62,701 nucleotides of DNA, from positions 1-62,701 of the IMG/VR virus record IMGVR_UViG_3300044911_000843; one strand, 5' to 3'. The notes beneath the pieces were generated by a model. It searched no databases, was not told the DNA's origin, and saw only the letters and a list, made by a program, of their open reading frames with translations. Below are positions 3,001 to 61,522 of the stretch, piece after piece (the stretch's first letter is position 1; every line of letters starts with the position of its first letter). A program made the position numbers and the translations under genes. The stretch comes from a virus. Its lineage: Duplodnaviria > Caudoviricetes.

Positions 3001-6000
3001 ATACCCGCGCCTGAATCGGCACGTTGTTCGTCAGCATATTCTTGATGGCTTCTGGATTAGACCTGACTTCGGTCGTCACCCCATTGTGGGTGGTCTTGAC
3101 GTATATTTCCTTTGAGCCAAGCAGGAAGGCAATCTTCGCCAGACCATATCCACCGGAAGATTCCTGCGGAGACAGACCTTTCTTTTCTGTGCCAAACACA
3201 GTGAAGAAGGCTTTGGTTACGGTGGGAGTGGACATGCCAATACCATTGTCCTTGATGGTAACGGTATTGGTAGCATTGTTCGCAAAGATTTCGACCTTGC
3301 CGCGACCGTTCAGGGTTTTGTTCTTCTGTGCAGCCTTGATGGCATCGAATGAATTCTGGACGAGTTCCTTGGCTGTCACCTGATCAATGCGATCAGAGTA
3401 CATGGTCATACCAAGAACATTCAGGGCTTCTGCGGTAGAGAAGCCACCCTGAATGCTTATATTCTTTCCTTCTTTATCCTGACTGAACTTCTCAGCCACC
3501 CCACTGATTGGCAAGGGATCGGCATTCAGGGAGTACGATGTTCTCCCATCTGCGGCGGTCTTCTCATCGACACTGAACATGCGCTCATAGACTTGCATGA
3601 TATGTTCCGGCACCTCGATGGACTTGCCATCGGGGGTCCTGATGTCGGAAGCCTTGGCGTAGACACCCTTCAGCCATGTAGCGAACTGCTTGAAAATCTT
3701 TGTGAGGGCTGCCGTCGGGCCTCTTCCGCTATAGAGGAACAACTCGAAACCGCGAGCGAACTTCTCGTGCTGGGCGGTGGTGAAGGGTTCGCCCTTGTTG
3801 CCAACCCAATCCCTGATGGTCTCCACATCCTTGGCGATCTGGGAATGGAACGGTGCATTCTTGACCATGCTCCGCAGCCAGAGATGCGAAGACTCATGCA
3901 TGAACGAACTGACGTTGGCTGCCTTGTAGAGCCGGATGATGGCGCTGTTGGGCAGCAGTTCTATCTCGGCGTTGACGATGTTCTCGGCAGTCTTCTGGTC
4001 GGGGTTCTGCTTGAGAAGACGGTTTGTTTCATCGAAGGTGCCGCGATTGAACTGGCTCTTTGTCTGGCCGTCGTTAAAGGGCACCACATGCAGGGTGTCC
4101 TTGGTCATCTCCTCCATGTTGGAGAACTGCTGGCCTGCCTGTTGGATCAGGCCGTCGTAATTCAATTTCTTGGCAAGGTCCTGTATCAACTGGCCGAACC
4201 CGCCGAACTCAGGGTCCGGATCGACATGACCAAACTTCCTGATGATGTCGTATACATCCTTGGCACTGACATTCCCGGTATTCTGATACTGGTTGTTCAG
4301 GATATTGACCGGGCCAGCGACATCAGCATTAGGATGGCTGTCGGCAAGATCATTCAGCGCCTTGATCAGGCGGGTGTAGTCTCGCCCGGTGAAGTTGGTG
4401 CCGTTGGTCCGCATGTCCATGGGGTTGTTCAGTCGGACATAGACCGGCATCACCACGCCACTGGTGTCTCCAAAGATTTCCTTCTCGGCAATTGAGCGCG
4501 AGACGTTGTTACCTTCCTGCGCTTCCAGTGCGTCATACACCTTGTTCGGCAGGGACAGGAGCGCCTCAGGCCAATACTTCCCTTTCAGGACTTTCCCGAC
4601 AAAGCTGTTGGCATCCCATGGACCATTGTTTGCAAGGTATTCCGACAGGTACTTGGCTCTCTCCTCCTTGGGGAGGTTGGTCAGATAGTCATCTATCTCG
4701 GACGTTCTGCGATTTACACGGTGGACTGCATCGGGACCTTCACGGGTGCCGTAATTAGCCGAAGCATCACGCGGGTTTGTGCTGACGTAGAAGCCCTGAC
4801 CTAGGGCACCCGTCTTGTCTCCCTTGCGGGAGTTGACCCGCCTTATGTTCCCATGGGTGGTGCCATGGTAAGCTTTGAACACAGCGGGACCGCCGCGATA
4901 GTTTGCAGGCCTCTCCACCAGAGGGGCACCCTTGGCCCATCTCTTGAAGTTAGCCCACCATGTTCCGCGATCCTCGATCAGCCCTTCCTGAGGACCTTTG
5001 ATGTCCCCCTCCTGCTTGAGGATGTTGGAGCCCGAGTCATAGGTCCCACGGTTATGGACAGACTTGATCTGGTTGGCGTCCTTCAGAACAACCCAGACGC
5101 CGTTCCCGTAGGTAACTCCGTCGTATCCCTGACGCCGTAGCTGATTGAAGAAATCAGACTGAACCTTCTTGTACCCCATGGCACCAAGGCGTCCGCTTGC
5201 CTGATTCAGTTGATCCGTGTCGGCCCTAGTCATGGTGTAGGGATTTTCGATCCTGACATGGACCGGCATCACCCGCGAAGCGGTGTTGGTCTTCTCCATC
5301 TTCCAGCCAGCACCTTGGCGGTATCCCATGCTGTCGTTCTGCATGGCGTACTGAGACGCAGATTCAGGATCGGTGGTGAACCACGCACCATGGGGTCCAA
5401 CCTTGAAGCCAGAGAAGTCCTTATCCTTGGAGGTGCCGTGGTAGAGGGTGATGGGGGCACCATCTTCATTGGCTACCTTGCTGCGGCCAAACCAGTTACG
5501 GAATGCTGAACCCAACTGACTGAGGGTCGTCTTGTTCTTTGGCGGCCAATGATGATCAGTCGCAGCTTCAGCAAACTTCTTCGCCTCTGGCAGAGGCATC
5601 CCGTTGTTGTAAGCTTCGACAACTACCCTGTCGTAGTAGCTGTTGTCGTTCTCGGAGGGACGCTTGGCTGGATAGTTGGTCTGCGCTGAAGCGGACGTTG
5701 TTTTGGTGGGATACTTGGCTTCGGTTGTCTTGGTCGCCTCTGCAACAGGGTCCTTCACGCCCTTCTTCTGTAGCCGAAGGATTTCGTTGTTGAAGAACTG
5801 CGTCTTGCTCTGTTCTGGAGCAGCAGGCACCTCGGGGGCGGCGGTCGGCTTCTTCAGGAACTTCTTGGGTGGGGGTGCCGCTACCTCAGGCTGGGCATTC
5901 GGATCGCCGCCATACTGGACCGAAAGATTCTCCAGCTTGTACTCATCGAAGGCAGTCGTGCCCTTTAGCCTAGCCAGCGTCTCATAGCGATCTCGCCAAA

Positions 6001-21595: not shown

Positions 21596-21650
21596 AATTC
21601 ATCCTCCCCCGAGGATTAACGCATTTATTGCCTAGGACACACCGCAGCGT
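21591..21650. repeat. 60-bp direct repeat, copy 1 (copy 2 at 25361-25420)
   Basis: 55/60 identical by manual alignment. Confidence 0.9.
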
Positions 21651-25360: not shown

Positions 25361-25420
25361 ATCATAATTCATCCTCCTACGAGGATTAACGCACTTATTG
25401 CCGAGGGCACACCGCAGCGT
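25361..25420. repeat. 60-bp direct repeat, copy 2; includes a remnant 3' end (..AAVCPRQ*) of the 21625 gene
   Basis: Manual alignment, offset 3770 bp. Confidence 0.9.
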
Positions 25421-33834: not shown

Positions 33835-33863
33835 AATTCATCCTCTACAAAGGATTACCGCGC

Positions 33864-38722: not shown

Positions 38723-41281
38723 TTAGTAATTCTGATTCGATCCATTGTTGGATCGTTTCTTGTTGTCCTGACTCTTCAGTTGCTGCGCCCTCATTTCGAG
38801 GTCGAGTAGTTCAAGTCCCGTATCAAGCATGTTCTGACGCTTGTTCGCATCTTCGCTGTTTTTGCTTTGAGCGATCTTTACGCCAAGAGCAGCGCCAGCG
38901 ACTCGTTCCTGTGAGGTGAGCCTGCGCTGATCGGCAGCTTCCTTCTGTGCAAGGGCTGCCATCTTGAACTGTAGTTCCTGCTTCGCAGCCTCGGCCTTCT
39001 GCTGGGCCTGCATCTGCTTGATCTGGAGTTCCTGCTGCTGCATCTGAACAACCGGGTCCTGCTGGGCCTGCTGGTTTTTCTTCTGTGCCGCCTCTGCCTG
39101 ATCCTTCTGGAGAAGCCTCTTGCTTGCCTCCGCCACGGTCTTGGAGAGCATGACCTCCACATCTTCCGGAAGAGGCTGATCCTCTGGCGGAAGAGGAACA
39201 CCCATCTGCTCTTCGATGCCCTTGCGGTAGGCGTAGGCGAGATGCTCCGACACATGGGCAGCAAGAGCCGCCTGTATGCGGGATGCCTGCGGGCTCTGCC
39301 CGACAAGCTCCATGATCTTCGGGTCCTGTGCCGCCGCCAGATGAACCTGAATATGGGCTTCCTGATCCTGATAGAGGAAAGCCTTTACCGGCTTGCCCAT
39401 CAGCAGCGCCATGTTCTCCGATACCGGGTCCATCGGAGTAATATCCTCCGGGTCCTTGACGATCTTGTCGGCATTCTGGACGCCAAGGATCGTCACGAAA
39501 TCCCGGTACAGGAGCGGCATATCGAATGCCTGCTGGTCTGTCTGGGCCAACTGGAGGACAGCCTGTCCCTGAACAACCCGCTGCGCCATGCTGGCTGCAT
39601 TCGGATCGGACACCGGGATGATATCCACTTGAGCGAAGTCCTCGACGCGAGAGCTATCGGCTTGCTCAACCTCGTATTCGTACTCCGGACCCATGTCTGT
39701 CGCGATGATATCCGCAATCAGCTTCAGGTCCTGCTTGAGGCTGGCATGGAGTCTTGCCTGAACCGCAGACATGACCTTCATGGATCGCTCCAGAAGGGCA
39801 AGTGTGGTGCCGACAGGAGCCTGCTGCGTCATCGCATTGATGGGGAGATCGGGTGCCGCACCAAGCCTGCGGCCTTCCTGAATCATGTCATTCAGGAGAC
39901 TGTGAAGAACCGCACTCGGTTCCTTGTAGGGCAGGAATGCGATGTTATCCCTGATGTTCCCGGAAGGAACATCGACATCGCGGAACTCACCCGGCATGAT
40001 CGGACTGTCGTCGCCCTTGATCCTCATGCCTCTGGATTTGAGGCCGCCGGGGAGATTGGCGAGTGTGCCCGCGTCCACAAGCTGTCTAAGAATGCTCGTG
40101 GCAGAAGCGGTAATCCCGCCAATCAGGTGAATAAGGCCAGAGCCATAGAAGCCCAAGCCCGGTAGATAGTGATAAGGCGTGAAATGCTGACGCCTGATCT
40201 TCATCGGGTCGCTCTCACTCCAGTTCCGGCGAATGGCCAGAACCTTCTGAGACGATTTATCGACCGTGATCACATAGGGAAGTTCGATGCCCGTCTGGGC
40301 TTCTTCTCCCGTATCCTCATCCGTAATCGTGTCTTCGAATCCGGGCAAATCCCAGTCTACATGGCACTCGTAGAGAGTATATCGCTCATCATCCTGAGAG
40401 GGATGGGAGCTACCTGTCAGCTTGTCGTACTTCTCTTTGATGTCGTCCTGCCGATAGGTTGGCTTCGGAAGATCGACACCTGAATACTGCCCAGTAACCT
40501 GCATCTTCTTCAGGTCGTTTGGGAAGATTCGCATGACCTGTGTATATCGGGGACAGGTCCTCAGGTCCGTGGTTCCGTATGGAACGATGAAGTCCTCTGC
40601 CGGAATGAAACGCCCCACAGGCCTTTTTAGTTCCGGGGAAAAGTAGATTTTTCTGAAGGCACTCCCGGCGAGTGCCAGATAGAACAGAAGCTGTTCCGTT
40701 TCTGGACGGAACTCGGTCATGCGATCCAGCAGGAAGTAGTTCAGTTCCTGCTCAACGCGCTTGGCCTGCTTCTCCTTGTCCTTGGTCCACTTGCCAAGGG
40801 TCTTGGTTCGAACCGGCCCGCCAGCCGGGTAGATTTCCATAATGGCCTGAGACTGAAACCTGACCGCAGCCTCGGTCATTACCGGGTGGAAGACACCACA
40901 GGCACCGGACCAAGGGTCGGTACGCTCTTCGGTCTTGAAGCCCAGAAGGCTCAGACCCTTAATGTACGCCCGCTTCCAGTCATCCCGCGAACGGTCATCG
41001 ATCTCGACCATCTCGCAGATTTTCCGGCCAATCGAATCGAGTTCGTTCTCTTCAATGTAGCCAGCCAGATTGTCATCGAATTCTTCTTCCTCCTCGGGAG
41101 ATGAATCCTCCGGAGCAAAGTCTACCGTGACGCCGCCATCATCGTTCTGCTCGATACCGACTTCCGGATCATCCGGAACAAGATCGATGTCGGTGCCAAG
41201 TCCCTGAACAATATCTTCGGGAAGAGAACCTTCCGGAGCGATTGTCGTTTCAATAAATGAGGGTCTTGGAGAGCGAGCCAT
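38723..41281 (-). CDS. Portal protein (P22-like, Gln-rich C-terminal barrel)
   Basis: 852 aa after terL; HP...EA..RFQ, G..FRK.Y, R.L.DAG.L.N; Q-rich tail. Confidence 0.85.
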   Translation of the reverse strand: MARSPRPSFIETTIAPEGSLPEDIVQGLGTDIDLVPDDPEVGIEQNDDGGVTVDFAPEDSSPEEEEEFDDNLAGYIEENELDSIGRKICEMVEIDDRSRDDWKRAYIKGLSLLGFKTEERTDPWSGACGVFHPVMTEAAVRFQSQAIMEIYPAGGPVRTKTLGKWTKDKEKQAKRVEQELNYFLLDRMTEFRPETEQLLFYLALAGSAFRKIYFSPELKRPVGRFIPAEDFIVPYGTTDLRTCPRYTQVMRIFPNDLKKMQVTGQYSGVDLPKPTYRQDDIKEKYDKLTGSSHPSQDDERYTLYECHVDWDLPGFEDTITDEDTGEEAQTGIELPYVITVDKSSQKVLAIRRNWSESDPMKIRRQHFTPYHYLPGLGFYGSGLIHLIGGITASATSILRQLVDAGTLANLPGGLKSRGMRIKGDDSPIMPGEFRDVDVPSGNIRDNIAFLPYKEPSAVLHSLLNDMIQEGRRLGAAPDLPINAMTQQAPVGTTLALLERSMKVMSAVQARLHASLKQDLKLIADIIATDMGPEYEYEVEQADSSRVEDFAQVDIIPVSDPNAASMAQRVVQGQAVLQLAQTDQQAFDMPLLYRDFVTILGVQNADKIVKDPEDITPMDPVSENMALLMGKPVKAFLYQDQEAHIQVHLAAAQDPKIMELVGQSPQASRIQAALAAHVSEHLAYAYRKGIEEQMGVPLPPEDQPLPEDVEVMLSKTVAEASKRLLQKDQAEAAQKKNQQAQQDPVVQMQQQELQIKQMQAQQKAEAAKQELQFKMAALAQKEAADQRRLTSQERVAGAALGVKIAQSKNSEDANKRQNMLDTGLELLDLEMRAQQLKSQDNKKRSNNGSNQNY

Positions 41282-41301: not shown

Positions 41302-42864
41302 TCAGTAATAGGCACGGCGACGGGGACGGACGGGTTCGTCATCACCCCATGTGTCTGAAGCTAGAGTTAGAAATCCACCTTGCCTGAATCTCATTAAAGC
41401 CATCGCTACGCAATCGACCAAGTCGTCATGCTCGACGGATGGGAAGTTCGCACAGTCCTCGATGACCTCATCCGCCCACACGAACTCCGGTGCCCACACA
41501 AGCCCGGAGGCAAAGATATCCGAGACTGCATTGACCCGGCTGATCTTGTCGTTGGGAGCCAGCTTGGTTCCACGGGTAGGATTGTATTCCTGTACCGGAA
41601 TCCCTCTGGCGCGCAACTCGTAGATCAGCGGAGCCCCCGCCGCCTTGGCCTCGACCATGAAGATGTCAGGCTGCCACTTCATGTAATGACGATGGGCAAT
41701 CGCCTTCAGTTCAGGGAACTCAAGGCGCTCCTTCCATGCGTCCAGAAGGATGAGATTGGGAACGCTCTTCCCGCCCTTGTCCGTCCGTGTCGCCTCGCTC
41801 TCCCCCGTAAAGATTCCCCAAGTGGTGAAGGCCGTGTAGTCGGCTGACTCCTTCTGGGAGTAAGCGGTATCGACCGTCACCATTTTTAGCGAGCATTCTG
41901 GGACCCTCGGCTCCTTCCAGCGTTTCCACCATTCCCGCCTGATGATGGAACCGGAATCATTCGAAGGTTCCTGCTGGTACTGGGCATTCCACCTGTTCGG
42001 TGGAAGGGCCAGCTTGGTCGCCTCAAGGTTCTCCAGACTCCAGAACTCTGGCCACAGAGACTTGCCGCTGGGCATGATTGCAGGAAGGGCCACGACCTTC
42101 CATTTGTCCGCCCTGTCCGACGCCGCCTCGCGCTCTGCCTTCAGAAGCTGGCCGGTGAAATCATTCACTGCCCACCGAGACTGGACCACCACGATGCGCC
42201 CGTTGGGCTGCAAACGCTGGCGGGGACCGGCCACGAACCAAGAGTAAACCCGCTGGAAGACACTGCTGTCTCCTATGGCGGCTACTGCCTGCTGCTCGCC
42301 GGTCGGGTCATCGATGATCACGATGTCGCCGCCCTTGCCGGTCACGTTACCTTCGGCACCCACCGCAAAATACTCTCCCCCGTGGGAGGTATGCCAGCGG
42401 CCCGCCGCCTTGGAGTCAGCCCTCAGGCCAACTCCGGGGAATATCTGCTGGTACTCGGTGGACGCGACAAGGTTACGCACCTTCCTCGACCAGCCAATGG
42501 CCATATCTCCGGTGCCACAAATCTGGATGATCTTGGCTTCGGGGTTCAGCCCGATATACCAAGCCGGAAGCATGTAGCTGAATAGCTCGGACTTGCTGAA
42601 TCGGGGCGGGAGATTGAGAATTACCCGGTTTTCACGCCCAAAAACAACGTCTTCAGCCAGTGCCGCCATCGTTTTATGATGGGTTCCAAGGATGAAACTA
42701 GGCCAACAAAGCCTCACAAAATCCAAGAAACTGGTACGAGCGTTCTCAATTCGCTCCAATCCGTCGATCTTTCCGACCAATTCCAGAAGATTTGAATACT
42801 CTTCCGGGTCCACCGTCTGAAGCATCTTCAGGCTTTTGTGGATTTCGTTCGGATCGAGGGCCAT
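41302..42864 (-). CDS. terL: Terminase large subunit
   Basis: LNLPPRFSKSE (Walker A-like), IIDDP (Walker B), DTA..DYTA and HDDLVD nuclease motifs. Confidence 0.95.
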   Translation of the reverse strand: MALDPNEIHKSLKMLQTVDPEEYSNLLELVGKIDGLERIENARTSFLDFVRLCWPSFILGTHHKTMAALAEDVVFGRENRVILNLPPRFSKSELFSYMLPAWYIGLNPEAKIIQICGTGDMAIGWSRKVRNLVASTEYQQIFPGVGLRADSKAAGRWHTSHGGEYFAVGAEGNVTGKGGDIVIIDDPTGEQQAVAAIGDSSVFQRVYSWFVAGPRQRLQPNGRIVVVQSRWAVNDFTGQLLKAEREAASDRADKWKVVALPAIMPSGKSLWPEFWSLENLEATKLALPPNRWNAQYQQEPSNDSGSIIRREWWKRWKEPRVPECSLKMVTVDTAYSQKESADYTAFTTWGIFTGESEATRTDKGGKSVPNLILLDAWKERLEFPELKAIAHRHYMKWQPDIFMVEAKAAGAPLIYELRARGIPVQEYNPTRGTKLAPNDKISRVNAVSDIFASGLVWAPEFVWADEVIEDCANFPSVEHDDLVDCVAMALMRFRQGGFLTLASDTWGDDEPVRPRRRAYY

Positions 42865-44435: not shown

Positions 44436-44690
44436 CTACGCGGAACCCCTGTTCCTGCTGTGCATGTAGCCACCGTTGCCTAGGCTGACATATCCAGTCC
44501 TCAGGGAGGGAGACCCGGCTTCCTGCTTGAGATACCTGTCCATAATGAATCTGCTGATTGGTTCTTCATGCTGGACCTTGGAAGGACTGATCATCCCATC
44601 TTCAGCAATCCGGGTGTGACCCCGGTAATGGGCATAGGAGGATACTCCCAGCCGATCTTTCAGACCTTGAATATATTCCTTTTGGGACAT
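44436..44690 (-). CDS. Hypothetical protein
   Basis: 84 aa, GGAGG RBS. Confidence 0.55.
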   Translation of the reverse strand: MSQKEYIQGLKDRLGVSSYAHYRGHTRIAEDGMISPSKVQHEEPISRFIMDRYLKQEAGSPSLRTGYVSLGNGGYMHSRNRGSA

Positions 44691-44742
44691 GAGACTATCC
44701 TCCCCAGAGGACCATCAGCCTATACCGATACCCAAACGTAAC

Positions 44743-44772
44743 AAGCCCCGCGAATTTTTCATCGCGGGGCTT
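44743..44772. terminator. Strong hairpin / terminator
   Basis: AAGCCCCGCGA/TCGCGGGGCTT 11-bp stem. Confidence 0.6.
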
Positions 44773-44833
44773 GCCAAGCCGAAGCTTTGCGTCATAAGCT
44801 TCGAACCGTTGGGCGTTGCCGCGCCCGTGTCCG

Positions 44834-44863
44834 ATACTAGTATCCCCGGACACAGCGCGTCAA
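44834..44863 (-). promoter_or_regulatory. Sigma70-like promoter overlapped by the palindrome GATACTAGTATC
   Basis: TTGACG-18 bp-TAGTAT. Confidence 0.45.
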
Positions 44864-44884
44864 CTCTCCCAAAAGAACTAAGAA

Positions 44885-45085
44885 GCAGGCCGTAGACGTA
44901 AACGGTCAGCCCTCAGAAGCCATTACCTCGGTGACTGAGGGTCCCATTGGGCGGTTGGAGCGGGGAAACCTCATCCAGCCCCGGACACCCAGAATTCCTC
45001 GGCGGGTTTGCTATTGCGAGGGTCCTGTAAAAAGGGCGGGTGGAGGTAAATGGCGGGGGCTGGCTCCGTCAGAACTGGAACCTGT
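44885..45085 (+). ncRNA. Candidate ~200-nt structured RNA
   Basis: No convincing ORF; 44907-44929 pairs with 45043-45062; internal hairpins, one with a GAAA loop. Confidence 0.4.
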
Positions 45086-45163
45086 TATGCCTGCTTGACC
45101 CCCCCAAAGGTCAGGCAGGCTCGTTCTATGGCAAAAGCTTCACCGTCAAAACTGGATAGATGA

Positions 45164-45466
45164 ATGCAGCCCACTTCAGCCGAAGGTATTCGAAGACAAA
45201 TCCAACGAAAACAAAAAGCCGGAAAGTTGGTGCCACAAAGAATGATTGATGCCCTTGCGGAAGCCATCAAAAGAAATCCCGAGAAAGCTCATTTAACGAA
45301 GGGTATTGATGGGAAGCTAATCAAACCAAGTCGCAAGAATAAAATATACAAAGTTCTTCATGGAACAAAATTAGGGAAGGCTTCCAAAGGAAGAACCATT
45401 TCAGGAGATGAACTGGAAAGAAGAAAGAAAGAACTCGAAAAACTCTGCGACATTCCAGCGTACTGA
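45164..45466 (+). CDS. Basic hypothetical protein
   Basis: 100-aa Lys-rich ORF in an AT-richer stretch. Confidence 0.55.
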   Translation: MQPTSAEGIRRQIQRKQKAGKLVPQRMIDALAEAIKRNPEKAHLTKGIDGKLIKPSRKNKIYKVLHGTKLGKASKGRTISGDELERRKKELEKLCDIPAY

Positions 45467-45559
45467 TATGTTTATCCACCACAGAGGAACACAAGCAGGA
45501 GAAGCCGCAGGGCTTATCCTGCGTTGTCCCAGCAAGTTATTGCCGTTGAAAGAGACACT

Positions 45560-45796
45560 ATGAAATATCCTGATCCCTTGGAATCCGCTCGCAGGAACCT
45601 TCTTGCTCGGATCGAACGCATGACCAATCCATCGCCATGGCAGGCCAAGCGGCTGCTACGGGCTCGGGAATGGTTGGACAAGGGAGAGTATCGCAAGGGC
45701 GAGGATCATATGGCCGCCACTGAGAGACCGGATTTATACGATCTAGATCACAAGAAAGATCAATCATCAGAATCCCCGAGTGGGAGATACAGATGA
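45560..45796 (+). CDS. Hypothetical protein
   Basis: MKYPDPLES..; ATGA-coupled to the HTH gene. Confidence 0.5.
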   Translation: MKYPDPLESARRNLLARIERMTNPSPWQAKRLLRAREWLDKGEYRKGEDHMAATERPDLYDLDHKKDQSSESPSGRYR

Positions 45797-46050
45797 AGAC
45801 TATTACGGACCCTGACCTCCCTTTGGGTGAGCGCCTGAGAAGGCTTGCAGCGGCTCAAGGCAAGAAGCCAAAGGACATCGCTGCCGAGTTGGACATGTCG
45901 GTACAACACATCAGCAGGCTCTACTGCGGCAAGAAAACCATGCGCCCAGCAATGCTCGACGGATTCATTGCGGCGCTGGACCTTGAGTACATGGCAGCGG
46001 CGCTGCACAAGGCCGCCGCGCGCGAGTATGGCTTTAGAATAGGAGGATAG
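45793..46050 (+). CDS. XRE/Cro-C1 family HTH regulator
   Basis: LGERLRRL..G....DIAAELDMS.QHISRL..GK. Confidence 0.8.
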   Translation: MKTITDPDLPLGERLRRLAAAQGKKPKDIAAELDMSVQHISRLYCGKKTMRPAMLDGFIAALDLEYMAAALHKAAAREYGFRIGG

Positions 46051-46053
46051 GAC

Positions 46054-46191
46054 ATGATCGACGCGAAAGAACTGGAAGAGGCGCTAAACGCCATCGAACT
46101 GACGCCGAGGGGGCGCTACGCGGACATACTGATCGCCGCCGCCCGCGCTGCGCTCCTCACAGATGAACCCGACAAGGCCAAGACACCCTAA
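46054..46191 (+). CDS. Small hypothetical protein (45 aa, not in ORF track)
   Basis: AGGAGG RBS; MIDAKELEEALNAIE... Confidence 0.5.
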   Translation: MIDAKELEEALNAIELTPRGRYADILIAAARAALLTDEPDKAKTP

Positions 46192-47223: not shown

Positions 47224-48183
47224 CTACAGATCAGTCTCAAGCATTTCTCGATGCTGCGCTTCCTCGACCTCCGGTCTGCGGTGCAGAATAGGCTCGATGT
47301 CCGAAACCTTTGATTTTTCAGAAAATTCAGACAGGCCTTTTCGGACTGGCTCATGGCCAAAATGCACCCCCGGTTGGGTTTGGGAGGGGGAGCTAGGATT
47401 ATTGGGTTCGTATGCGGGGGTTACTATAAAATTCTCAGGCGGGTCCGCTGGTGCTGCAAGGGGGCTGCCCGGTGGGTGGGGTTCGCGCGAGCCTTTTTCT
47501 TCCGCCGTGGCGGATGGCGGGCTGTTCACCGTCCCTATGCCGAGGGACAGCGAGGGATTGTAGCGCCCTAGGGCAGTGCTAAGTCTTTGATATAGCTGAG
47601 ACTTTAGTGCCTCAAGGTCCTTGGGATTGATGCTGCGTTCAGTGCGGCGGACATCAGTGAACAAAGCTTCCGTCTTCCCCAATAGCTCCAATGCCCGGAT
47701 ACGGCTGCTACTCTCACCTGCGGTCTGGGCTTCCATGGTGAGCCTGCCGAGCACGAAATCTCTCATGTTTACAACAGCTTGCGCCCTCTTCGCCTCCATC
47801 TCCCCGCGATACTGCCCTATTGCGTCCCGCCACACCGGCTTGCTGGTGATCCTATGTGCCGCATATGTCACCTGTTCTGGCGCTATGTCGGGCCTTGCCT
47901 GATACGCTGCCCTGTATGCGTCGGACAGGGTGGCACCCCTTGCGACCAGCCTTGCCATTGCGTCCGCTCTGGGGGTTAGCCCATTGGCCAGCGTTCGCCC
48001 GGTCCTGATTTCCCCGGAGATTGTGACCGGAGGTATGTCCAAATCTACAGGGAGCCTAGGCATTAGGGTGCCGCCCGCTAGGTATACGATCTCGGCTTCT
48101 CCCATTGGTGCCTTTTGAGCTTTGGTTCTGGCAGCCGCTGGTATCTCGCTTGCGCTCGCAGGCCGGCGCTTAGTTGGTTTCAT
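47224..48183 (-). CDS. terS: Terminase small subunit with a Pro-rich C-terminal tail
   Basis: LTPR..A..G..SDAYRAAY..A.R...P...I; VL..L..EA..RIRALELLGK...F. Confidence 0.75.
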   Translation of the reverse strand: MKPTKRRPASASEIPAAARTKAQKAPMGEAEIVYLAGGTLMPRLPVDLDIPPVTISGEIRTGRTLANGLTPRADAMARLVARGATLSDAYRAAYQARPDIAPEQVTYAAHRITSKPVWRDAIGQYRGEMEAKRAQAVVNMRDFVLGRLTMEAQTAGESSSRIRALELLGKTEALFTDVRRTERSINPKDLEALKSQLYQRLSTALGRYNPSLSLGIGTVNSPPSATAEEKGSREPHPPGSPLAAPADPPENFIVTPAYEPNNPSSPSQTQPGVHFGHEPVRKGLSEFSEKSKVSDIEPILHRRPEVEEAQHREMLETDL

Positions 48184-48330
48184 TTAGTAACCCGTGAGCA
48201 AATTCAGCGTTATATGTGCGGCGGATTGTCGCATTATCACCGGGCATTGGAAACCGTATCTTCGATGAACCGGCGACGAGATCGCCCGGCGGGGAACCAT
48301 CCCGGTTCCGCCCCTTCAGAGGACAGCACC

Positions 48331-48522
48331 ATGATCACCAAGTATGACGCCAAGTCCAAGCTCGTCACCATCTCGTTCTCGTACGATCCCGCTGCCAAGT
48401 ACCCGGCCAGCAAGTCCGGCAAGACCTCACTGGTCGGCACCACAGGCGGGAACGTCGTGGTGAGCGGGACCAACGGCCTTCTGAAGGTGGGCGTCAACGC
48501 CTTCATCCCGAAGCAGGACTAG
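48331..48522 (+). CDS. Small conserved protein (63 aa)
   Basis: GAGGA RBS; SKSGKT..V.TTGGN..KVGVNAF; followed by its own terminator. Confidence 0.75.
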   Translation: MITKYDAKSKLVTISFSYDPAAKYPASKSGKTSLVGTTGGNVVVSGTNGLLKVGVNAFIPKQD

Positions 48523-48538
48523 CCCCTACCGCCACCAG

Positions 48539-48572
48539 AACCCCCCGGATAATCTCCGGGGGGTTTTTCTTT
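48539..48572 (+). terminator. Intrinsic terminator
   Basis: AACCCCCCGGA/TCCGGGGGGTT followed by TTTCTTT. Confidence 0.85.
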
Positions 48573-48917
48573 GCCTGCAATGGGGTATCATAATACCCCA
48601 TCTTTTTTGCCCTCCAGAGGCCTTCGACCTCGCTCTGGTACCACCCTACAGGCCACCTAGCGCAAGGCCTTGTGGCGGGCAAATTTACCGCCCTAGCGGC
48701 AATCCAAAGCCCCGACCGATCCCCCGCCTTGACGGCCCGATCCCCCCGGAGATTTCTCCGGGCAATCTCCGGGCGCATGGTCAATGCATATTCACATGCA
48801 ATGCAGACGATGGGCTGCGGTCTCGCCTGTCCCGCTGTCCCATTCAATAGAGATGGGACAAGCGGGACAGAGTGTAGCCTGTAATCAGGGCAATTCATAC
48901 CAGTCTGGCACCACCTG

Positions 48918-49042
48918 AGAGGGTCTGAACCCTAGTCATCTGGGGCGGCTCTGAGAGGAGATCAGAGGGTCTGGATGGTGATCATCTGGGGCTGCTCTGG
49001 TGTGGTCTTTGGGGTTTGGATACCCATCATCTGGGGCGGCTC
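48918..49042. repeat. Three ~45-bp imperfect tandem units with core TCATCTGGGGCKGCTC
   Basis: Cores at 48936, 48982 and 49027 (periods 46 and 45 bp). Confidence 0.85.
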
Positions 49043-49117
49043 GATAAGGTGATCACCTCCTAGAGAGCAGGTATCCTGCGCGCACGTTCTTTTGTCGCGC
49101 CGCGCCCGCCGCGTGGC

Positions 49118-49140
49118 TGCGACAATTTGTCGCATTGACG
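49118..49140. promoter_or_regulatory. Palindrome TGCGACAA-T-TTGTCGCA abutting TTGACG
   Basis: Perfect 8-bp arms; related copy at 48217-48239. Confidence 0.5.
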
Positions 49141-49220
49141 CCAGAAAACCCAACGAAAACAACGGCTTGTCCCTGCGTCGTTCGGTCGCAGGGACAACGG
49201 TTTTCGTTCGTGCCCATAAT

Positions 49221-49800
49221 GCCGCCGTTGCCCCCTCATGGGGTAACGCGGGGCGAGTGAGTTGTCCCGGCAAGGTACCGCAAGGTGCTTATGTGAAACG
49301 GCAGCCGACAGTACCCGCAAGGGGAAGCGGTAAGGCGAGATGCAAGGAGTGCTGATCGTCAGTAAGGCCAGAAACTCTCCGAGTGGCGGCGAGTAGATGT
49401 CGAGGTCCGATTAGTCCTCTAGCGAGGATGAAAGGCTGCCCTTCATCGAAACACCCCGCGAGGGATTGCCCTAGTGGACCATGAGCAGGTTCCTAGCTGC
49501 GGCGTCTGGTAGTAACGAACCAGCGTCGGCGGGCAACTTGGTAGGTTGGTTGAGCAGGACGCTCCCACCCTATCGAACCCCTGTTCCCACCAATCAAGCC
49601 AACGGACGTTCCCATAGGCCAAAGCCCATCGTCGCTTTCGCGCTCTCTGGTCAGTGCCCCTCTCCCATCGTGGCCGCGCACCAGACACCCGGCAGTCCCT
49701 CGTGACAGCCTATGCAATCACCATCCCGGCACCAATACCAATAAGGGAACAGGTTCAACTAGATACCGGCGCGACGGCGCAAATAGCGGTGCCGGTATCT
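49221..49800 (+). ncRNA. Candidate large structured non-coding RNA (~580 nt)
   Basis: No credible ORF; three GNRA-capped hairpins; long-range helices 49300-06/49434-40, 49466-71/49531-36, 49580-88/49745-53, 49613-19/49708-14; 12-bp terminal stem 49761-49800. Confidence 0.6.
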
Positions 49801-49857
49801 CCTTGTCTATGAAGCCCATGCCTTCCTGTGTGGGCTTCACCTACAAGGAGAATCATC

Positions 49858-50049
49858 ATGAATGAACTGGGTCATGCCATCTATCTCCAGACCCTCTACG
49901 TCTTCACCAACATCTTCTTGCGCCATACCCGCAAGATAGACCTTCTCGCAGACGTGAAGTCCAATGACTACATCGTCCGTGAGTTCTATCGAGTGATGAA
50001 CAAGCGTCATCCCAACAATCCGTGGCTCTACTACGGCACCAAATACTAG
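49858..50049 (+). CDS. Early hypothetical protein
   Basis: AAGGAG RBS, ATG 49858. Confidence 0.6.
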   Translation: MNELGHAIYLQTLYVFTNIFLRHTRKIDLLADVKSNDYIVREFYRVMNKRHPNNPWLYYGTKY

Positions 50050-50059
50050 GAGGTAATCC

Positions 50060-50341
50060 ATGAACGCCGAATGGCGTCTCGTTCCCATGCCCGGTTATCA
50101 GGATGTGGGTGGTGTCTGTGTTGTCGGACCGGACAACCTGTCCGTTGCCGACTGTGACAATGCAGAGGTTGCCCGTCTGTTGGTTGCGGCACCCGATATG
50201 CTGCAGGCACTGAAGCGTGCCCTGCCTTGGATTGGCAAGATGATTGCCAACAATTCGCACATGGATTCCGTGGCACCGAATGATTGTGTCGGTGCCATGT
50301 ATATGATGATCGCTGCAATCAAGAGAGCAGAGGAGAACTGA
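50060..50341 (+). CDS. Early hypothetical protein (ARL.AAPDML motif family)
   Basis: GGAGG RBS; ARLLVAAPDMLQALK. Confidence 0.7.
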   Translation: MNAEWRLVPMPGYQDVGGVCVVGPDNLSVADCDNAEVARLLVAAPDMLQALKRALPWIGKMIANNSHMDSVAPNDCVGAMYMMIAAIKRAEEN

Positions 50342-51116: not shown

Positions 51117-51210
51117 AGAGCCTTCAGCCAGTTCATCCCTTTCGGGGGATGAACGAGCGGACGGCTCGTCCGAAGCCCACTCCGGGCATAACAGGAGATT
51201 GGAGTGACAA

Positions 51211-51886: not shown

Positions 51887-51939
51887 ATGTTCATCCTCTG
51901 TCGGGGATGAACATGAAAGAGTTTCAACAAGAAGAGGTG

Positions 51940-52407: not shown

Positions 52408-53514
52408 TTGGAGTACACAATGCGGCAAGCCCGAGACATCATTGAAGACTCGGTGATGAACCCTCTCGGTAACGGACAGCACCGGACTATCTACCTTGTG
52501 GGTGATCCGGGTATCGGCAAGACCTCCCTTGCAAGGTCTGTGTTCATGGCCCATCGCAAGTGGGACGATCACTCGCTGCCCCTCAAGGACAGGAAGGTAA
52601 TCAATCCCAATGGGTTCACCCACTTCATCGCCTATGTGGCACCGGAGAGGGAGCCTATCGACTGGGGTCTGCCGTCCGTTAACAAAGCGCGGGATGCTTT
52701 CAGCATGCTGCCGCTGGATGAGTTCAAGTTCCTGCCGACTGATCGCCCCTTCATCCTGATTGATGAGGTCGATAAGGCACCCAACATGATGCAGAACCTA
52801 ATCGCCCGCATCGCCAATGACCGGACGGTGGGTAACATCGTGTTCCCCGAGGGGACATTCATCCTGATGGCGGGCAACAAGCTGACCAATAAGGCGGGTG
52901 GGTTTGTTGCCAACACCCATATCAAGAACCGTCGAACCAATGTCCCTCTGATGGTGTCACCGGAGGAATGGATCGATGATGTGGCGATACCCTTCGAACT
53001 CCACAGTTCGGTGGTGTCGTTCATCCGAGTGGCGAATGACATGCTGCACAAGTTCGATGCCGGTGCGCCATCGTTTCCGTCGCCCCGGTCTGTGACCAAG
53101 GTCGGGCTGATGCTGAACCAGACCAAGTCACCGCATGTCGAGCGTGCCCTGATCGAGGGTGACTGCGGTGTCGAGTGGGCCAATAGTTTCTGGGGTCATC
53201 TCAGAATCTTCCGCTCTCTCAGAAACCCGGAGATGGTGATTGCTGACCCCGACAACATCGAGGTGCCGGATGGTAATGACTCCATGCCGATCCTCTTTGC
53301 GGAGACGACCCACCTCGCCAAGTATGTGAACCGTAAGAATGCGGACGCTATCTTCCGCTACTTCAACAGGCTGCCCGGTGAGTTCGGCTTCATCGGATAC
53401 CGCGATGTGCTGAAGCGGGACAGGTTGCTGGTATCGGGCAGCCCGTCAGGCCAGCGGTGGCTGGTCAAGAACGCCACCATGATTGCCGCTACTGAAGCGC
53501 CAGCCAAGGACTGA
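52408..53514 (+). CDS. MoxR-like AAA+ ATPase
   Basis: GDPGIGKT (Walker A), ILIDE (Walker B), AGN sensor, NR finger, PSPRS. Confidence 0.88.
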   Translation: MEYTMRQARDIIEDSVMNPLGNGQHRTIYLVGDPGIGKTSLARSVFMAHRKWDDHSLPLKDRKVINPNGFTHFIAYVAPEREPIDWGLPSVNKARDAFSMLPLDEFKFLPTDRPFILIDEVDKAPNMMQNLIARIANDRTVGNIVFPEGTFILMAGNKLTNKAGGFVANTHIKNRRTNVPLMVSPEEWIDDVAIPFELHSSVVSFIRVANDMLHKFDAGAPSFPSPRSVTKVGLMLNQTKSPHVERALIEGDCGVEWANSFWGHLRIFRSLRNPEMVIADPDNIEVPDGNDSMPILFAETTHLAKYVNRKNADAIFRYFNRLPGEFGFIGYRDVLKRDRLLVSGSPSGQRWLVKNATMIAATEAPAKD

Positions 53515-53539
53515 ACTCATCCCCTATCGAGGATGACTT

Positions 53540-53584: not shown

Positions 53585-54823
53585 ATGAACGTCAATCAAG
53601 AGAGACTGGTAACAGAAGCCAAGCTGGTCATGCTGCGACGGCTTGCTTACTACGGCACCTATGTGATTGGGATTCCCCTCATCGAATCCGAATCCATCCC
53701 GACTGCCTGCACTGACGGCACCATGATCATGTTCAACCCGATATGGCTCCTGCATGAGGGCAGTAAGGACAAGCCTCTGCGTCCAAGGGATCAGGTCATC
53801 TTTGTGCTTGCCCATGAGGTCATGCACATCTGTCTCAAGCATGGGCTTCGCATGGGGTTTCGTGATCCGTCTCTGTGGAATGTAGCCTGTGACTACGCAA
53901 TCAATCTGCTGCTGCACAAGGGCAATGTCGGCACCATGCCACCGGCAGAGGTCAATCCCGAGACAGGCGAGAAGTATCCCATCCTTCTCGACTTGAAGTA
54001 CGATGGCATGTCAGCCGAAGCCATCTATGATCTGCTTGATAAAGAACACAAGAAGCAGGGTGGTTCCGGCAAGCTACAGATTGGCAATGTCATCATTGAT
54101 CTGAGCCAGTCTGATCCGGGTGGTACGGGTGGATTCAAGAAGCCCACCGCTGAAGACGGGTCTGAACTCTCTGCTAACAAAACGCAGGAGATCGAGCGGG
54201 ACATCGACTCCAAGACCTCCGCTGCACTGGCTGCGGCCAAGGCTATTGGCCAGATGCCGAGTGAACTGGAGTTCCTGCTGAAGACCTCGCTCAAGCCCAT
54301 CATCGACTGGCGGGACAGGCTGCGGCAGTTTGTCTTCAGGCAGATACCGAATGACTACTCATGGAGCAGGCCATCCCGCCGACACCTGTCGCATGACCTG
54401 TACCTACCGCACATCGAGAAGTCCGGTGTCGGAAAGATACTCGTCATCATGGATACCTCCGGTTCCGTTGAATATACCTCACCGCAATCAGAGGGTGCCC
54501 AGTATTACTCGGAGATCAAGGCAATACATGAGGATGTAATGCCGGAAACATTACACATCATGTACTGCGATTCACAGGTGGCAGGGCATGACGTTTTTCA
54601 GGGCGGAGAAGAACCTGTCCTGAAGCCTCGCGGTGGCGGTGGCACTGACTTCAATCCGCCCTTCAAGATGATCGATGAGATCGGCATTGATATCCAGTGT
54701 GCGATCTATCTGACAGATGGACACGGACCCTTCCCCAAGGAGCCTGCTCCCTATCCGGTGCTTTGGGTCATCACATCAGATGTCATTGCCCCATGGGGTG
54801 AGACAGTTCCGCTGCGTAAATAA
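53585..54823 (+). CDS. DUF2201-type metallopeptidase-vWA protein
   Basis: TACTDG, HEVMH, WN.ACDYAIN; MIDAS DTSGS, GGGGTDF, LTDG. Confidence 0.9.
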   Translation: MNVNQERLVTEAKLVMLRRLAYYGTYVIGIPLIESESIPTACTDGTMIMFNPIWLLHEGSKDKPLRPRDQVIFVLAHEVMHICLKHGLRMGFRDPSLWNVACDYAINLLLHKGNVGTMPPAEVNPETGEKYPILLDLKYDGMSAEAIYDLLDKEHKKQGGSGKLQIGNVIIDLSQSDPGGTGGFKKPTAEDGSELSANKTQEIERDIDSKTSAALAAAKAIGQMPSELEFLLKTSLKPIIDWRDRLRQFVFRQIPNDYSWSRPSRRHLSHDLYLPHIEKSGVGKILVIMDTSGSVEYTSPQSEGAQYYSEIKAIHEDVMPETLHIMYCDSQVAGHDVFQGGEEPVLKPRGGGGTDFNPPFKMIDEIGIDIQCAIYLTDGHGPFPKEPAPYPVLWVITSDVIAPWGETVPLRK

Positions 54824-60682: not shown

Positions 60683-61522
60683 ATGGCTACTTCCAAAGAT
60701 ACCACCTCCGATCTTATCGAGGCCATCAAGAATGTTCGATCCAAGATGGTGTCGCTCAAGCAGGATTCGGAGAACAAGCATGGAGGCTACAACTATGTCT
60801 CCATCGATACCTACTACGAGAAGGTATCGAAGGTCGCCACTGAGGTCGGGGTGATCTGGCGCACACGGGAACTGACCTTCGATCTGGTTCCCAATCAAGG
60901 CAAGATGAAGGACAGGACTTATGTCCAGTCCAAGTTTGCCTTCGATGTCTATTACGGATCATCCTCCATCGAGGATTACATGAGCGTTACCGTCTTCAGT
61001 CCCTATGACGGGCCGCAGACGACGGGTCAGTTGTTCAGCTATGCCGACAAGGTGTTCATGCGGGTTGCCTTCTGCGTCTCGACCGGAGAGAAGGACGCCG
61101 ACGACATCAAGCAGGAGCCGGTGAACATCAAGGCCACCAAGGCTGATCCCTTGCTGGATGATCTGACCCTTACCCCGAAGGCTAATGGGGTGGTGCCGCA
61201 CGACCCACTGACTGGAGAACTGGATGATCCCGGTGTTCACGAGACACTGGAATTGTCCGTCGAGCAGACTGACGTTGCACCGACGTTCGATGAGGGCCTC
61301 CCCCTCATGGACCCCAAGAAGATAGCTGGCATCAAGGCTGTCCAGATGATCAAGGAAATCTTCAATACGTTCCTTCCATCTGTGAAGACCAAGACCAAGC
61401 TGACGGATTGGTACGCCGTGAATCTTGCTGCCATCGAGAAAGCAGACAAGGTTATTCCCGGCACCAAGAAGGAGATTTCAGCAATGTTCAGGGTTCACCT
61501 GAATAATCTGGAATCCAAGTAG
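60683..61522 (+). CDS. erf: ERF-family single-strand annealing protein
   Basis: K...N.HGGYNY.SID..PQ.TG...SYA.K....F..STGE.DAD. Confidence 0.75.
   Translation: MATSKDTTSDLIEAIKNVRSKMVSLKQDSENKHGGYNYVSIDTYYEKVSKVATEVGVIWRTRELTFDLVPNQGKMKDRTYVQSKFAFDVYYGSSSIEDYMSVTVFSPYDGPQTTGQLFSYADKVFMRVAFCVSTGEKDADDIKQEPVNIKATKADPLLDDLTLTPKANGVVPHDPLTGELDDPGVHETLELSVEQTDVAPTFDEGLPLMDPKKIAGIKAVQMIKEIFNTFLPSVKTKTKLTDWYAVNLAAIEKADKVIPGTKKEISAMFRVHLNNLESK

What the first reader, a model, noticed from the sequence alone, without database searches (positions are those of the whole stretch)
49221..49840. Large, densely structured non-coding RNA candidate leading the early region
Seen: ~600 nt with no credible ORF, just after CATAAT (49215). 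Local stems: CGTTGCCCC/GGGGTAACG, AGGTACC-GCAA-GGTGCTT, CCC-GCAA-GGG, CCC-GCGA-GGG, GTCCTC/GAGGAT, CTGGT/ACCAG. Domain-closing helices: GGCAGCC/GGCTGCC, TTGCCC/GGGCAA, CATAGGC/GCCTATG. Crossing pairings that could be pseudoknots: GGTCC 49404/GGACC 49476, and CCTGTTCCC/GGGAACAGG across GTTGGTTGA/TCAAGCCAAC. G-U pairs and GNRA loops favour the + strand. Known: phages encode large ncRNAs such as GOLLD and ROOL; I cannot assign this one to a family. Inference: a possibly new large RNA made first in infection (ribozyme, scaffold, defence decoy or antiterminator). It contains one ATCC-N8-GGATGAA-type box.
Basis: partly seen in the sequence, partly recalled or inferred. Interest (0 to 1): 0.82.

Follow-up and report, generated by a model that had tools for sequence, protein, structure and literature searches.

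The report
Long untranslated leader, not ornate RNA
The 620-base gene-free stretch is most likely the long untranslated leader of a lake phage's rightward operon, well folded only at its two ends, and nothing shows it to be a new large structured RNA.

Summary
The stretch is real. "Densely structured" holds only for the two ends.

- **5' end:** three tandem hairpins (49226-49294) fold better than shuffles on the + strand only (z -3.35, 0 of 200, against +0.66 on the - strand).
- **3' end:** a three-way junction (49752-49854, -53.2 kcal/mol, z -6.44) buries the Shine-Dalgarno sequence of the first gene (ATG 49858).
- **Core:** the 450 nt between them fold no better than shuffles (z -0.34, 39 of 100). 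They include a C-rich, G-poor tract (49571-49730). Near-identical strains carry a 35-nt insertion and an inferred 7-nt deletion here.

No Rfam family matches. The only retrievable diverged relative shares the first gene but has no alignable leader. That leader is built the same way: a TATAAT box, + strand-specific tandem hairpins, an unremarkable middle and a structured 3' end. No RNA data and no covariation test were possible.

Best reading: a long cis-regulatory 5' leader with 5' hairpins, a possible Rho-loading tract and a locked ribosome-binding site. A new large RNA family is not excluded, at about 0.1.

The parts
49191..49220 (+). Candidate sigma-70-type promoter, GGGACA-18 nt-CATAAT (9 of 12 consensus positions). 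The -35 hexamer lies in the 3' arm of the upstream hairpin 49152-49208.
   Evidence: the only promoter-like site in 48400-50200, but shuffles give 0.7 +/- 0.8, so it is at chance level. Its position, 5 nt before the strand-specific hairpins, is the supporting point. Start site inferred, not shown.
49226..49294 (+). 5' module of three tandem hairpins. H1 is 49226-49234/49240-49248 (9 bp, one G-U). H2 is 49249-49256/49262-49269. H3 is 49270-49294, with core AGGUACC-GCAA-GGUGCUU at 49273-49290.
   Evidence: 49221-49300 on the + strand gives -37.6 kcal/mol, z -3.35, 0 of 200 shuffles as stable. The - strand gives z +0.66 (144 of 200).
49296..49750 (+). Core of the leader. The core tolerates indels.
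   Evidence: z -1.36, -0.82, -0.39 and +0.82 for four sub-segments; 49301-49750 gives z -0.34 (39 of 100); a minor contig in run X24 has a 35-nt insertion at 49355, T49294C and C49318T; a 7-nt deletion at 49664-49670 is inferred from P0013.
49571..49730 (+). C-rich, G-poor tract (C 39-45%, G 19-21%, C/G about 2.1) that is thermodynamically unstructured. Possible Rho-loading (rut-like) site.
   Evidence: windows starting at 49561 and 49661 are among the 15 most C-over-G 80-nt windows of the genome (above the 99th percentile of 0.20); 49650-49760 gives z +0.82. The rut function is inferred.
49752..49854 (+). Three-way junction. Closing helix is 49752-49756/49850-49854. Hairpin A is 49762-49799. 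Hairpin B is 49800-49849. It pairs every base of the Shine-Dalgarno AAGGAG (49845-49850).
   Evidence: -53.2 kcal/mol, the MFE structure is 32% of the ensemble, z -6.44 (0 of 200). The - strand gives z -4.99. L023 (97.2% identical over 646 nt) has 0 of its 18 differences in the 103 nt 49755-49857; the inferred A49765G changes A-U to G-U in hairpin A, and 49774 and 49776 lie in its internal loop.
49858..50049 (+). First gene of the + strand arm, 63 aa, no known family, real protein.
   Evidence: 4 homologues, all 63 aa, 62-87% identical, all starting at the same Met. No Pfam or PHROG match.
48539..48610 (+). Two intrinsic-terminator-like hairpins with U runs after the small + strand gene 48331-48522. 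They mark the upstream end of the roughly 1250-nt gene-free stretch.
   Evidence: sequence; one search lists 48580-48601; I11 gives 48539-48565.
48730..49145 (.). Upstream control region. Holds two long hairpins (48742-48775, 48826-48872), three 44-nt direct repeats spaced 45-46 nt (48921-49055), and the palindromes AGGTGATCACCT (49047-49058) and TGCGACAATTTGTCGCA (49118-49134).
   Evidence: repeats; 48730-48879 gives z -5.46 (+) and -5.10 (-); 49005-49145 gives z -2.59 and -3.04. The symmetry between strands fits DNA sites as well as RNA. TTGTCGCATT occurs exactly twice, at 48226 and 49127.

Best explanation
The stretch is the long (about 630 nt) untranslated 5' leader of the mRNA for the phage's rightward, probably early, operon. 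It is a cis-regulatory leader and not a free-standing large structured RNA.

Transcription probably starts just after CATAAT (49215-49220). The transcript opens with three tandem hairpins. These could protect the 5' end and might act on the polymerase as the two-hairpin put RNA of phage HK022 does.

A thermodynamically unremarkable spacer follows. It contains a 160-nt C-rich, G-poor, unstructured tract, which in an untranslated RNA is the kind of site where Rho loads.

The leader ends in a very stable three-way junction that pairs the whole Shine-Dalgarno sequence of the first gene. That gene can then be translated only after the junction is opened or cut.

Shown here: the absence of coding, the strand-specific folding of the 5' module, the stability and local conservation of the 3' junction, and the composition of the C-rich tract. 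Inferred: the start site, Rho action, any antitermination, and the way the junction is opened.
For: - No ORF with homologues. The 74-aa ORF has 1 hit of 1.84 billion representatives, a near-identical contig with a shifted frame. There are no pseudogene remnants.
- + strand RNA is favoured. The whole leader gives z -3.74 (0 of 100) on + against -0.58 on -. The 5' 80 nt give z -3.35 (0 of 200) against +0.66.
- The 3' junction gives -53.2 kcal/mol and z -6.44, and all six SD bases are paired.
- 0 of the 18 differences in L023 fall in the 103 leader bases it covers. Under uniform spread the chance is (543/646)^18, about 0.04.
- Variant changes at stably predicted pairs keep them. A49765G turns A-U into G-U in hairpin A, and T49491C turns G-U into G-C. 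C49318T gives GCAA to GUAA if the CCC-GCAA-GGG hairpin forms.
- C-rich tract: two of the 15 most C-over-G windows of the genome.
- The only diverged relative (L024/L025) has the same design without sequence similarity. It has TATAAT, then tandem hairpins (z -2.60 on +, +0.41 on -), a non-significant middle with a C-rich window (C 0.42, G 0.20), and a structured 3' end (z -3.20).
- Genes downstream all run on the + strand and the first has a canonical SD and ATG.
Against: - No transcript data. All 24 runs that hold the stretch are DNA.
- The promoter is a chance-level consensus match. The relative's TATAAT has no -35 by the same scan.
- The 3' junction also folds on the - strand (z -4.99), so it is a palindrome at DNA level too.
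- Strongly folded intergenic hairpins are common in this genome, as is a CATCC-N8-GGATG motif (16 matches against 3.3 expected). The end modules are therefore not special to this leader.
- The relative's leader is not syntenic: four extra genes lie between it and the shared gene. The parallel is one of design, not homology.
- Two of two pair-preserving transitions prove little, since about half of all transitions in stems preserve pairing.
- The global MFE changes with the ends chosen. In the 49221-49860 fold, 49318 is paired (with 49422) and not in a loop.
Confidence: 0.5

Rival explanations
1. A free-standing, new family of large structured non-coding RNA (scaffold, ribozyme, decoy). Its core would fold through tertiary contacts and long-range helices that nearest-neighbour energy does not capture.
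For: - About 630 nt without coding.
- + strand-specific stability overall.
- Three GNRA-capped stems within 250 nt, putting the region among the 47 of 2496 300-nt windows with 3 or more.
- 9-mer inverted repeats: 4 against 0.83 expected (7 of 300 shuffles).
- The two variant bases seen in GNRA loops both fall at the N position: C49318T here and G1059C between L024 and L025.
- The 35-nt insertion in a variant sits in the loop of a small hairpin.
Against: - The core 49301-49750 gives z -0.34 (39 of 100), and its sub-segments -1.36 to +0.82.
- No Rfam family reaches threshold in the whole window. Within 48800-50100 only 8 matches appear up to E = 10, all far below gathering scores.
- No nucleotide homologue in INPHARED phages, in 20 TerL-related loci, or in L024/L025.
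- Three pattern scans of IMG/VR and one of GTDB genomes gave nothing or chance hits.
- The leader ends in an SD-sequestering junction fused to the first gene, which is typical of a 5' UTR.
- No terminator separates it from the gene.
- The predicted structure is unstable to the choice of ends.
Confidence: 0.1
2. Mostly DNA-level control or spacer sequence. It would hold promoters, operators, an origin or packaging signals for the divergent arms. The real mRNA start would lie close to the first gene, and the stems in the core would be chance.
For: - The stretch is the right part of a roughly 1250-nt gene-free region at the switch between the - and + gene arms, which is also the minimum of cumulative GC skew.
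- Upstream lie three 44-nt direct repeats and two perfect palindromes.
- The upstream hairpins fold equally on both strands.
- The promoter match is at chance level.
- The core is indistinguishable from shuffles and shows indels between strains.
Against: - The 5' hairpins are stable only as + strand RNA (z -3.35 against +0.66). A DNA palindrome would not give that.
- The same holds for the relative.
- The repeats and palindromes lie upstream of 49221, not inside the stretch.
- No alternative promoter-like site was found between 49221 and 50200.
Confidence: 0.3
3. Decayed or unrecognised coding sequence: a pseudogene remnant or small leader peptides.
For: Short ORFs exist, at 49383-49484 (33 aa), 49481-49705 (74 aa) and 49654-49812 (52 aa). 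The relative has four small genes between its leader and the shared gene.
Against: - The 74-aa ORF has no homologue beyond one near-identical contig, where a 7-nt deletion changes the frame.
- tblastn of 12 L024 proteins and tblastx against the region give nothing better than E = 0.12.
- No SD precedes the 74-aa ORF (sequence).
Confidence: 0.05

Closest known systems
HK022 put RNAs (putL, putR), cis-acting antiterminator RNAs
   Same: Hairpins made from the very start of an early phage transcript, just downstream of the promoter. [quoted passage not shown] Here 69 nt of tandem hairpins start 5 nt after the -10-like box and are followed by a Rho-type C-rich tract.
   Different: Three hairpins rather than two. 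No sequence comparison with put was possible, because no model or sequence was on hand. No triplex or bulge features were examined. The host is unknown, so RNA polymerase contact cannot be judged. This is a resemblance of layout only.
Phage early leaders with processing or RBS-occluding hairpins (lambda N leader, T7 early leader with an RNase III site); recalled, no call
   Same: A long untranslated leader before the first early gene, ending in a long imperfect duplex that includes the ribosome-binding site.
   Different: Recalled from general knowledge. My one literature search for it found 0 papers. No RNase III cleavage can be predicted from sequence. The leader here is two to three times longer.
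Rho-dependent leader attenuators with rut sites (recalled as a class)
   Same: An untranslated stretch of at least 80 nt that is C-rich, G-poor and weakly structured, between promoter and first gene.
   Different: Composition is the only evidence. Rho dependence is untested and the host is unknown.
GOLLD, ROOL and OLE large ornate RNAs
   Same: Size class (hundreds of nt). [quoted passage not shown]
   Different: No match to any Rfam model at gathering score in the window, and none of these families appears even at E up to 10 in 48800-50100. The core lacks excess folding energy.

Membership tests
Any Rfam 15 family (including GOLLD, ROOL, OLE, raiA, group I/II introns, RNase P, riboswitches, small ribozymes) | Covariance-model score at or above the family's gathering threshold | tested here: not met
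   0 matches in the whole window on both strands; 8 matches up to E = 10 in 48800-50100. The best is mir-233 at 21.7 bits against a gathering score of 67, and it lies outside the stretch. None is a large-RNA family.
HK022 put-type antiterminator RNA | About 70 nt of stem-loops transcribed just downstream of an early promoter | tested here: inconclusive
   69 nt of three hairpins start 5 nt after CATAAT and are + strand-specific. The promoter is a chance-level match, and put has two stems rather than three (PMC9378689).
HK022 put-type antiterminator RNA | Sequence or structure similarity to putL/putR; binding to the beta' zinc-binding domain; read-through of terminators | not testable with these tools
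The function needs transcription assays.
RBS-sequestering 5' UTR element | Shine-Dalgarno bases paired in a structure more stable than chance, directly upstream of a real start codon | tested here: met
   AAGGAG 49845-49850 is fully paired, -53.2 kcal/mol, z -6.44 (0 of 200). The start codon is confirmed by 4 homologues of equal length.
Rho-dependent leader attenuator | C-rich, G-poor, unstructured tract of at least 80 nt in untranslated RNA | tested here: met
   49571-49730 has C 39-45% and G 19-21%; z -0.39 and +0.82.
Rho-dependent leader attenuator | Termination that depends on Rho | not testable with these tools
   Needs an in vitro or bicyclomycin assay in the (unknown) host.
New large structured RNA family | Conserved homologues with covarying base pairs | tested here: inconclusive
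   No alignable homologue could be fetched.

The most novel reading that the evidence does not exclude
The leader, or its 5' hairpin module together with the C-rich tract and the 3' junction, is a new class of cis-acting phage early-leader RNA. The 5' hairpins would modify the host polymerase or block Rho, in the manner of put. The three-way junction would gate translation of the first gene. In the bolder form, the whole 630 nt folds into a new large RNA whose core is held by tertiary contacts that energy models do not see. The same layout in an unrelated leader (L024) would then mark a widespread but sequence-diverse class in freshwater phages.
Probability: 0.12. Interest if true: 0.6.

Novelty: new member of a known kind. 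Interest (0 to 1): 0.25.

Why it matters
If the reading is right, this is an ordinary long regulatory leader in an uncultured lake phage. It is useful for annotation: it gives the promoter region, the true start of the first gene and its locked ribosome-binding site. It is not a discovery.

It would matter more if the 5' hairpins proved to be a protein-independent antiterminator. Few such elements are known outside HK022-type phages. The stretch, together with the relative's leader of like design, would then give two test cases.

The finding also shows that lists of hand-picked stems in GC-rich non-coding DNA need a shuffle control. Here the 450-nt core fails that control.

Tried and rejected
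**Known RNA family.** Rejected (for the relative, one search gave only a CRISPR-repeat model at 21.4 bits against a gathering score of 39).

**Homologue hunt**
- blastn against INPHARED phages with 48900-49860 and with 40000-62701 gave no match.
- The TerS-like protein in IMG/VR gave 0 relatives.
- TerL in IMG/VR gave 20 loci. One is 98% identical but ends 160 nt upstream of TerL; the others are 47-59% identical. None shows nucleotide similarity to 48900-49860.
- The ATPase in IMG/VR gave 1 locus at 98% identity, which starts about 600 nt downstream of the leader, near 50447.
- The alignment of the first-gene family gave 2 loci in JGI metagenomes (L023, L024), 1 in IMG/VR (L025) and 0 in GTDB genomes.
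- A 22-nt match between the two leaders (E 0.32) was tested as a motif. It has 0 hits in IMG/VR, and L025 carries a change inside it. Rejected as chance.
- The core of the three upstream repeats, used as a pattern, gave 34 single hits with no extended similarity.
- A 16-mer from hairpin H3 gave 8 hits with no extended similarity.
- A 30-mer from the 3' junction gave 0 hits in GTDB genomes.

**Other searches and dead ends**
- tblastn of TerL against cultured phages: the best hits are 44.6-48.4% identical (Pelagibacter, Planktothrix and others), so the host stays unknown. The first gene has no match there.
- RNA evidence: no RNA holder is listed among the 24 runs.
- Laying contigs of 4 runs: three runs are identical to the window, and one minor contig in X24 varies. 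'No support' from these contigs says nothing on expression.
- MAFFT alignment of the two leaders was meaningless.
- Coding or pseudogene reading: rejected.
- N4-type hairpin promoters: the giant ORF at 2-7492 is a polyvalent protein with ART and HATPase domains, not an RNA polymerase.
- Literature: the lambda N leader / RNase III search found 0 papers, so that comparison is recalled only.
- Supplements of papers were not consulted.
This blocked access to the contigs of P0001 (87% identical), P0002 (79%), P0004 (62%) and P0013.

Full report
**Context.** The window is a complete 62.7-kb virus record from freshwater lakes. 24 DNA runs from 21 studies hold the stretch almost word for word, and none is on record as RNA. 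Structural and packaging genes fill the - strand up to 48183: TerL at 41302-42864, portal at 38723-41281 and a TerS-like gene at 47224-48183. From 49858 the genes run on the + strand. They include small ORFs, an ATPase at 52408-53514 and a DUF2201/VWA protein at 53585-54823.

Between the arms lies a small + strand gene (48331-48522) followed by two terminator-like hairpins with U runs (48539-48610). After them come about 1250 nt without a credible gene. The - strand ORF 48503-48898 overlaps both terminators and has no family match, so I treat it as spurious. That is an inference. The cumulative GC skew has its minimum here.

**The observation.** There is no credible ORF. The longest + strand ORF (74 aa) has a single hit among 1.84 billion representatives. 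That hit, P0013, is a 125-aa gene call on one near-identical contig. It agrees for 61 residues and then continues in another frame of the window, which implies a 7-nt deletion at 49664-49670. A frame that is not kept between 97%-identical strains is not a gene. tblastn of 12 proteins of the relative L024, and tblastx, found no gene remnants (best E 0.12).

**Is the folding more than chance?** As a whole, yes, and only on the + strand. For 49221-49857 the + strand gives z -3.74 (0 of 100 dinucleotide shuffles as stable) and the - strand z -0.58 (27 of 100). The tool's own 20-shuffle run on 49221-49840 gave -2.23 and -0.22. The signal comes from the two ends (200 shuffles each):

| Segment | + strand z | - strand z |
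|---|---|---|
| 49221-49300 | -3.35 (0 of 200) | +0.66 |
| 49296-49445 | -1.36 (20 of 200) | -1.10 |
| 49440-49545 | -0.82 | +0.87 |
| 49545-49690 | -0.39 | +0.28 |
| 49650-49760 | +0.82 | -0.22 |
| 49750-49860 | -6.44 (0 of 200) | -4.99 |

The core 49301-49750 as one piece gives z -0.34 (39 of 100) on + and +0.29 on -. A sliding scan of 40-55 kb shows the core windows (z +0.12, -1.21, -0.72, -1.09) inside the range of coding sequence. Many intergenic hairpins elsewhere reach z -4 to -9 (15 shuffles per window, stopped at 55.2 kb by the time limit).

Inverted repeats are mildly enriched. For 7-mers there are 21 against 13.2 expected (22 of 300 shuffles reach it), for 8-mers 8 against 3.4 (20 of 300), and for 9-mers 4 against 0.83 (7 of 300). 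GNRA-capped stems of 3 bp or more number 4 (two overlapping), against 2.3 per kb genome-wide on the + strand. 47 of 2496 300-nt windows hold 3 or more, several of them antisense to genes, and only one stem in the region is 5 bp or longer. The MFE of the whole stretch also changes with the chosen ends: position 49318 is in a loop in one fold and paired in another. So 'densely structured' is confirmed for about 170 nt at the ends and not for the 450-nt core.

**Anatomy.**
- **5' module.** H1 is 49226-49234/49240-49248, H2 is 49249-49256/49262-49269, and H3 is 49270-49294 with a GCAA loop. G-U pairs make it stable on the + strand only. It begins 5 nt after CATAAT. With GGGACA 18 nt upstream, that box is the one sigma-70-like site the scan finds in 48400-50200, but 0.7 sites are expected by chance.
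- **Core.** It holds a tract at 49571-49730 with C 39-45% and G 19-21%. Two of its windows are among the 15 most C-over-G windows of the genome, and it is unstructured.
- **3' module.** The closing helix is 49752-49756/49850-49854, hairpin A is 49762-49799 and hairpin B is 49800-49849. It folds at -53.2 kcal/mol, and the MFE structure takes 32% of the ensemble. All six bases of the SD AAGGAG (49845-49850) are paired, while ATG 49858 lies just outside. The start codon is fixed by four homologues of exactly 63 aa.

**Variation.**
- L023 (97.2% identical over 646 nt, 18 differences) starts at 49755. It has none of its differences in the 103 leader bases it covers. Under a uniform spread the chance of this is about 0.04.
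- Three of four laid runs are identical to the window. A minor contig in X24 shows T49294C, C49318T (GCAA to GUAA if that hairpin forms) and a 35-nt insertion at 49355.
- From P0013 I infer T49491C (G-U to G-C in the 49471-49496 helix), A49535G, the 7-nt deletion, C49686T, C49722T, A49765G (A-U to G-U in hairpin A), and A49774T and G49776A (internal loop of hairpin A). These are read from a protein, so silent changes are invisible.
- The changes at stably predicted pairs keep them, but about half of all transitions do so by chance. The two indels fall in the core.

**Relatives.** No nucleotide homologue was found anywhere. The first gene has four homologues (87, 79, 65 and 62% identical). Only the 65% one could be fetched, as L024/L025, two copies of one phage that differ at 63 of 6189 bases. 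Similarity to the window begins 12 nt before the ATG. In that phage four other small genes, each preceded by a repeated 70-90-nt element, lie upstream of the shared gene. None of its other proteins has a match in the window.

Further upstream it has its own gene-free stretch of about 785 nt with a perfect TATAAT at 1036-1041 (no -35 by the scan). Next come tandem hairpins that are stable on the + strand only (z -2.60, 1 of 200, against +0.41). The middle is non-significant (z -0.97, -0.97, +0.65) and has a C-rich window (C 0.42, G 0.20). The end is structured (z -3.20). This is the same design without homology. It supports 'long leader with functional ends' as a recurrent layout, and says nothing for a conserved large fold.

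**What it most likely is.** It is a long untranslated leader of the rightward operon (confidence 0.5). The 5' hairpins would stabilise the transcript, and by position they resemble the put RNAs of HK022: about 70 nt, two stem-loops, just downstream of PL, acting against intrinsic and Rho-dependent terminators (PMC9378689, Introduction passages). The C-rich tract is the kind of site where Rho loads on untranslated RNA. This is an inference from composition and from recalled knowledge of rut sites. The junction locks the ribosome-binding site, and how it is opened is unknown. Cleavage by RNase III, as recalled for the lambda N and T7 early leaders, is one option, but my literature search for it found nothing.

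The rivals are:
- DNA-level control region or spacer with a start site nearer the gene (0.3);
- a new free-standing large RNA (0.1);
- decayed coding sequence (0.05).

**Comparison with known systems and novelty.** The stretch is not a member of any Rfam family, GOLLD, ROOL and OLE included (named from the abstract of PMC12286853 in the listing). As a leader with an RBS-sequestering structure it is a new member of a known kind. Membership in the put family could not be tested. Interest is low to moderate, at 0.25. The boldest reading that is not excluded, a new cis-acting early-leader RNA class or a large RNA with a tertiary-held core, gets 0.12.

**Limits.** There are no RNA data, no host and no alignable homologue. 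Supplementary files of papers were not seen.

Noticed in passing
window, genome-wide, e.g. 21600-21617, 25370-25387, 33839-33856, 51134-51151, 51892-51909, 53518-53535, 60960-60977: The palindromic hairpin motif CATCC-N8-GGATG (up to 1 mismatch) occurs 16 times against 3.3 +/- 1.5 expected (0 of 100 shuffles reach 16). Many copies lie between genes. On the - strand arm the motif reads as AATCCTC...GAGGATG, that is an SD-like GGAGG/GAGGA paired with its complement, so it may be a genome-wide SD-occluding or operator hairpin. The leader copy at 49414-49429 is a degenerate version.
   Followed up: partly
window 48921-49055: Three 44-nt direct repeats spaced 45-46 nt with the core TCATCTGGGGC(G/T)GCTC. 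They lie next to the perfect palindromes AGGTGATCACCT (49047-49058) and TGCGACAATTTGTCGCA (49118-49134), at the GC-skew minimum. They look like iterons, operators or terminase-binding sites. The core motif has only chance-level single hits in IMG/VR.
   Followed up: partly
window 48226-48235 and 49127-49136: TTGTCGCATT occurs exactly twice in the genome. One copy is upstream of the small + gene 48331-48522 and one upstream of the leader, each within a similar box of about 25 nt. It may be a shared operator or promoter element (8 matches with up to 1 mismatch against 3.8 expected).
   Followed up: partly
window 48730-48879: Two long hairpins (48742-48775 and a roughly 19-bp stem at 48826-48872) fold far better than shuffles on both strands (z -5.46 and -5.10).
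   Followed up: partly
window 44690-45163: A second gene-free divergent region of about 470 nt inside the - strand arm, with strong hairpins (z about -6 at 44601-44800 on both strands). It is followed by four small + strand genes at 45164-46191, one of which (45793-46050) looks like an HTH regulator by eye.
   Followed up: no
window 2-7492 (- strand): A giant ORF of more than 2497 aa runs off the record's left end. It carries an ART-PolyVal ADP-ribosyltransferase domain and a GHKL ATPase domain, so it is a polyvalent, probably injected, protein.
   Followed up: no
L024 1561-1632, 1845-1932, 2176-2265, 2543-2634, 3296-3357, 4255-4321, 4679-4750, 5727-5791: The relative phage carries a 60-90-nt repeated intergenic element (two hairpins ending in an SD) before most of its small early genes. 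The copy before the first gene folds with z -3.2.
   Followed up: partly
window 49264-49391: A hotspot of strain variation. In run X24 the assembly breaks here, and a minor 164-nt contig differs by 7 letters and a 35-nt insertion, while flanks are identical.
   Followed up: partly
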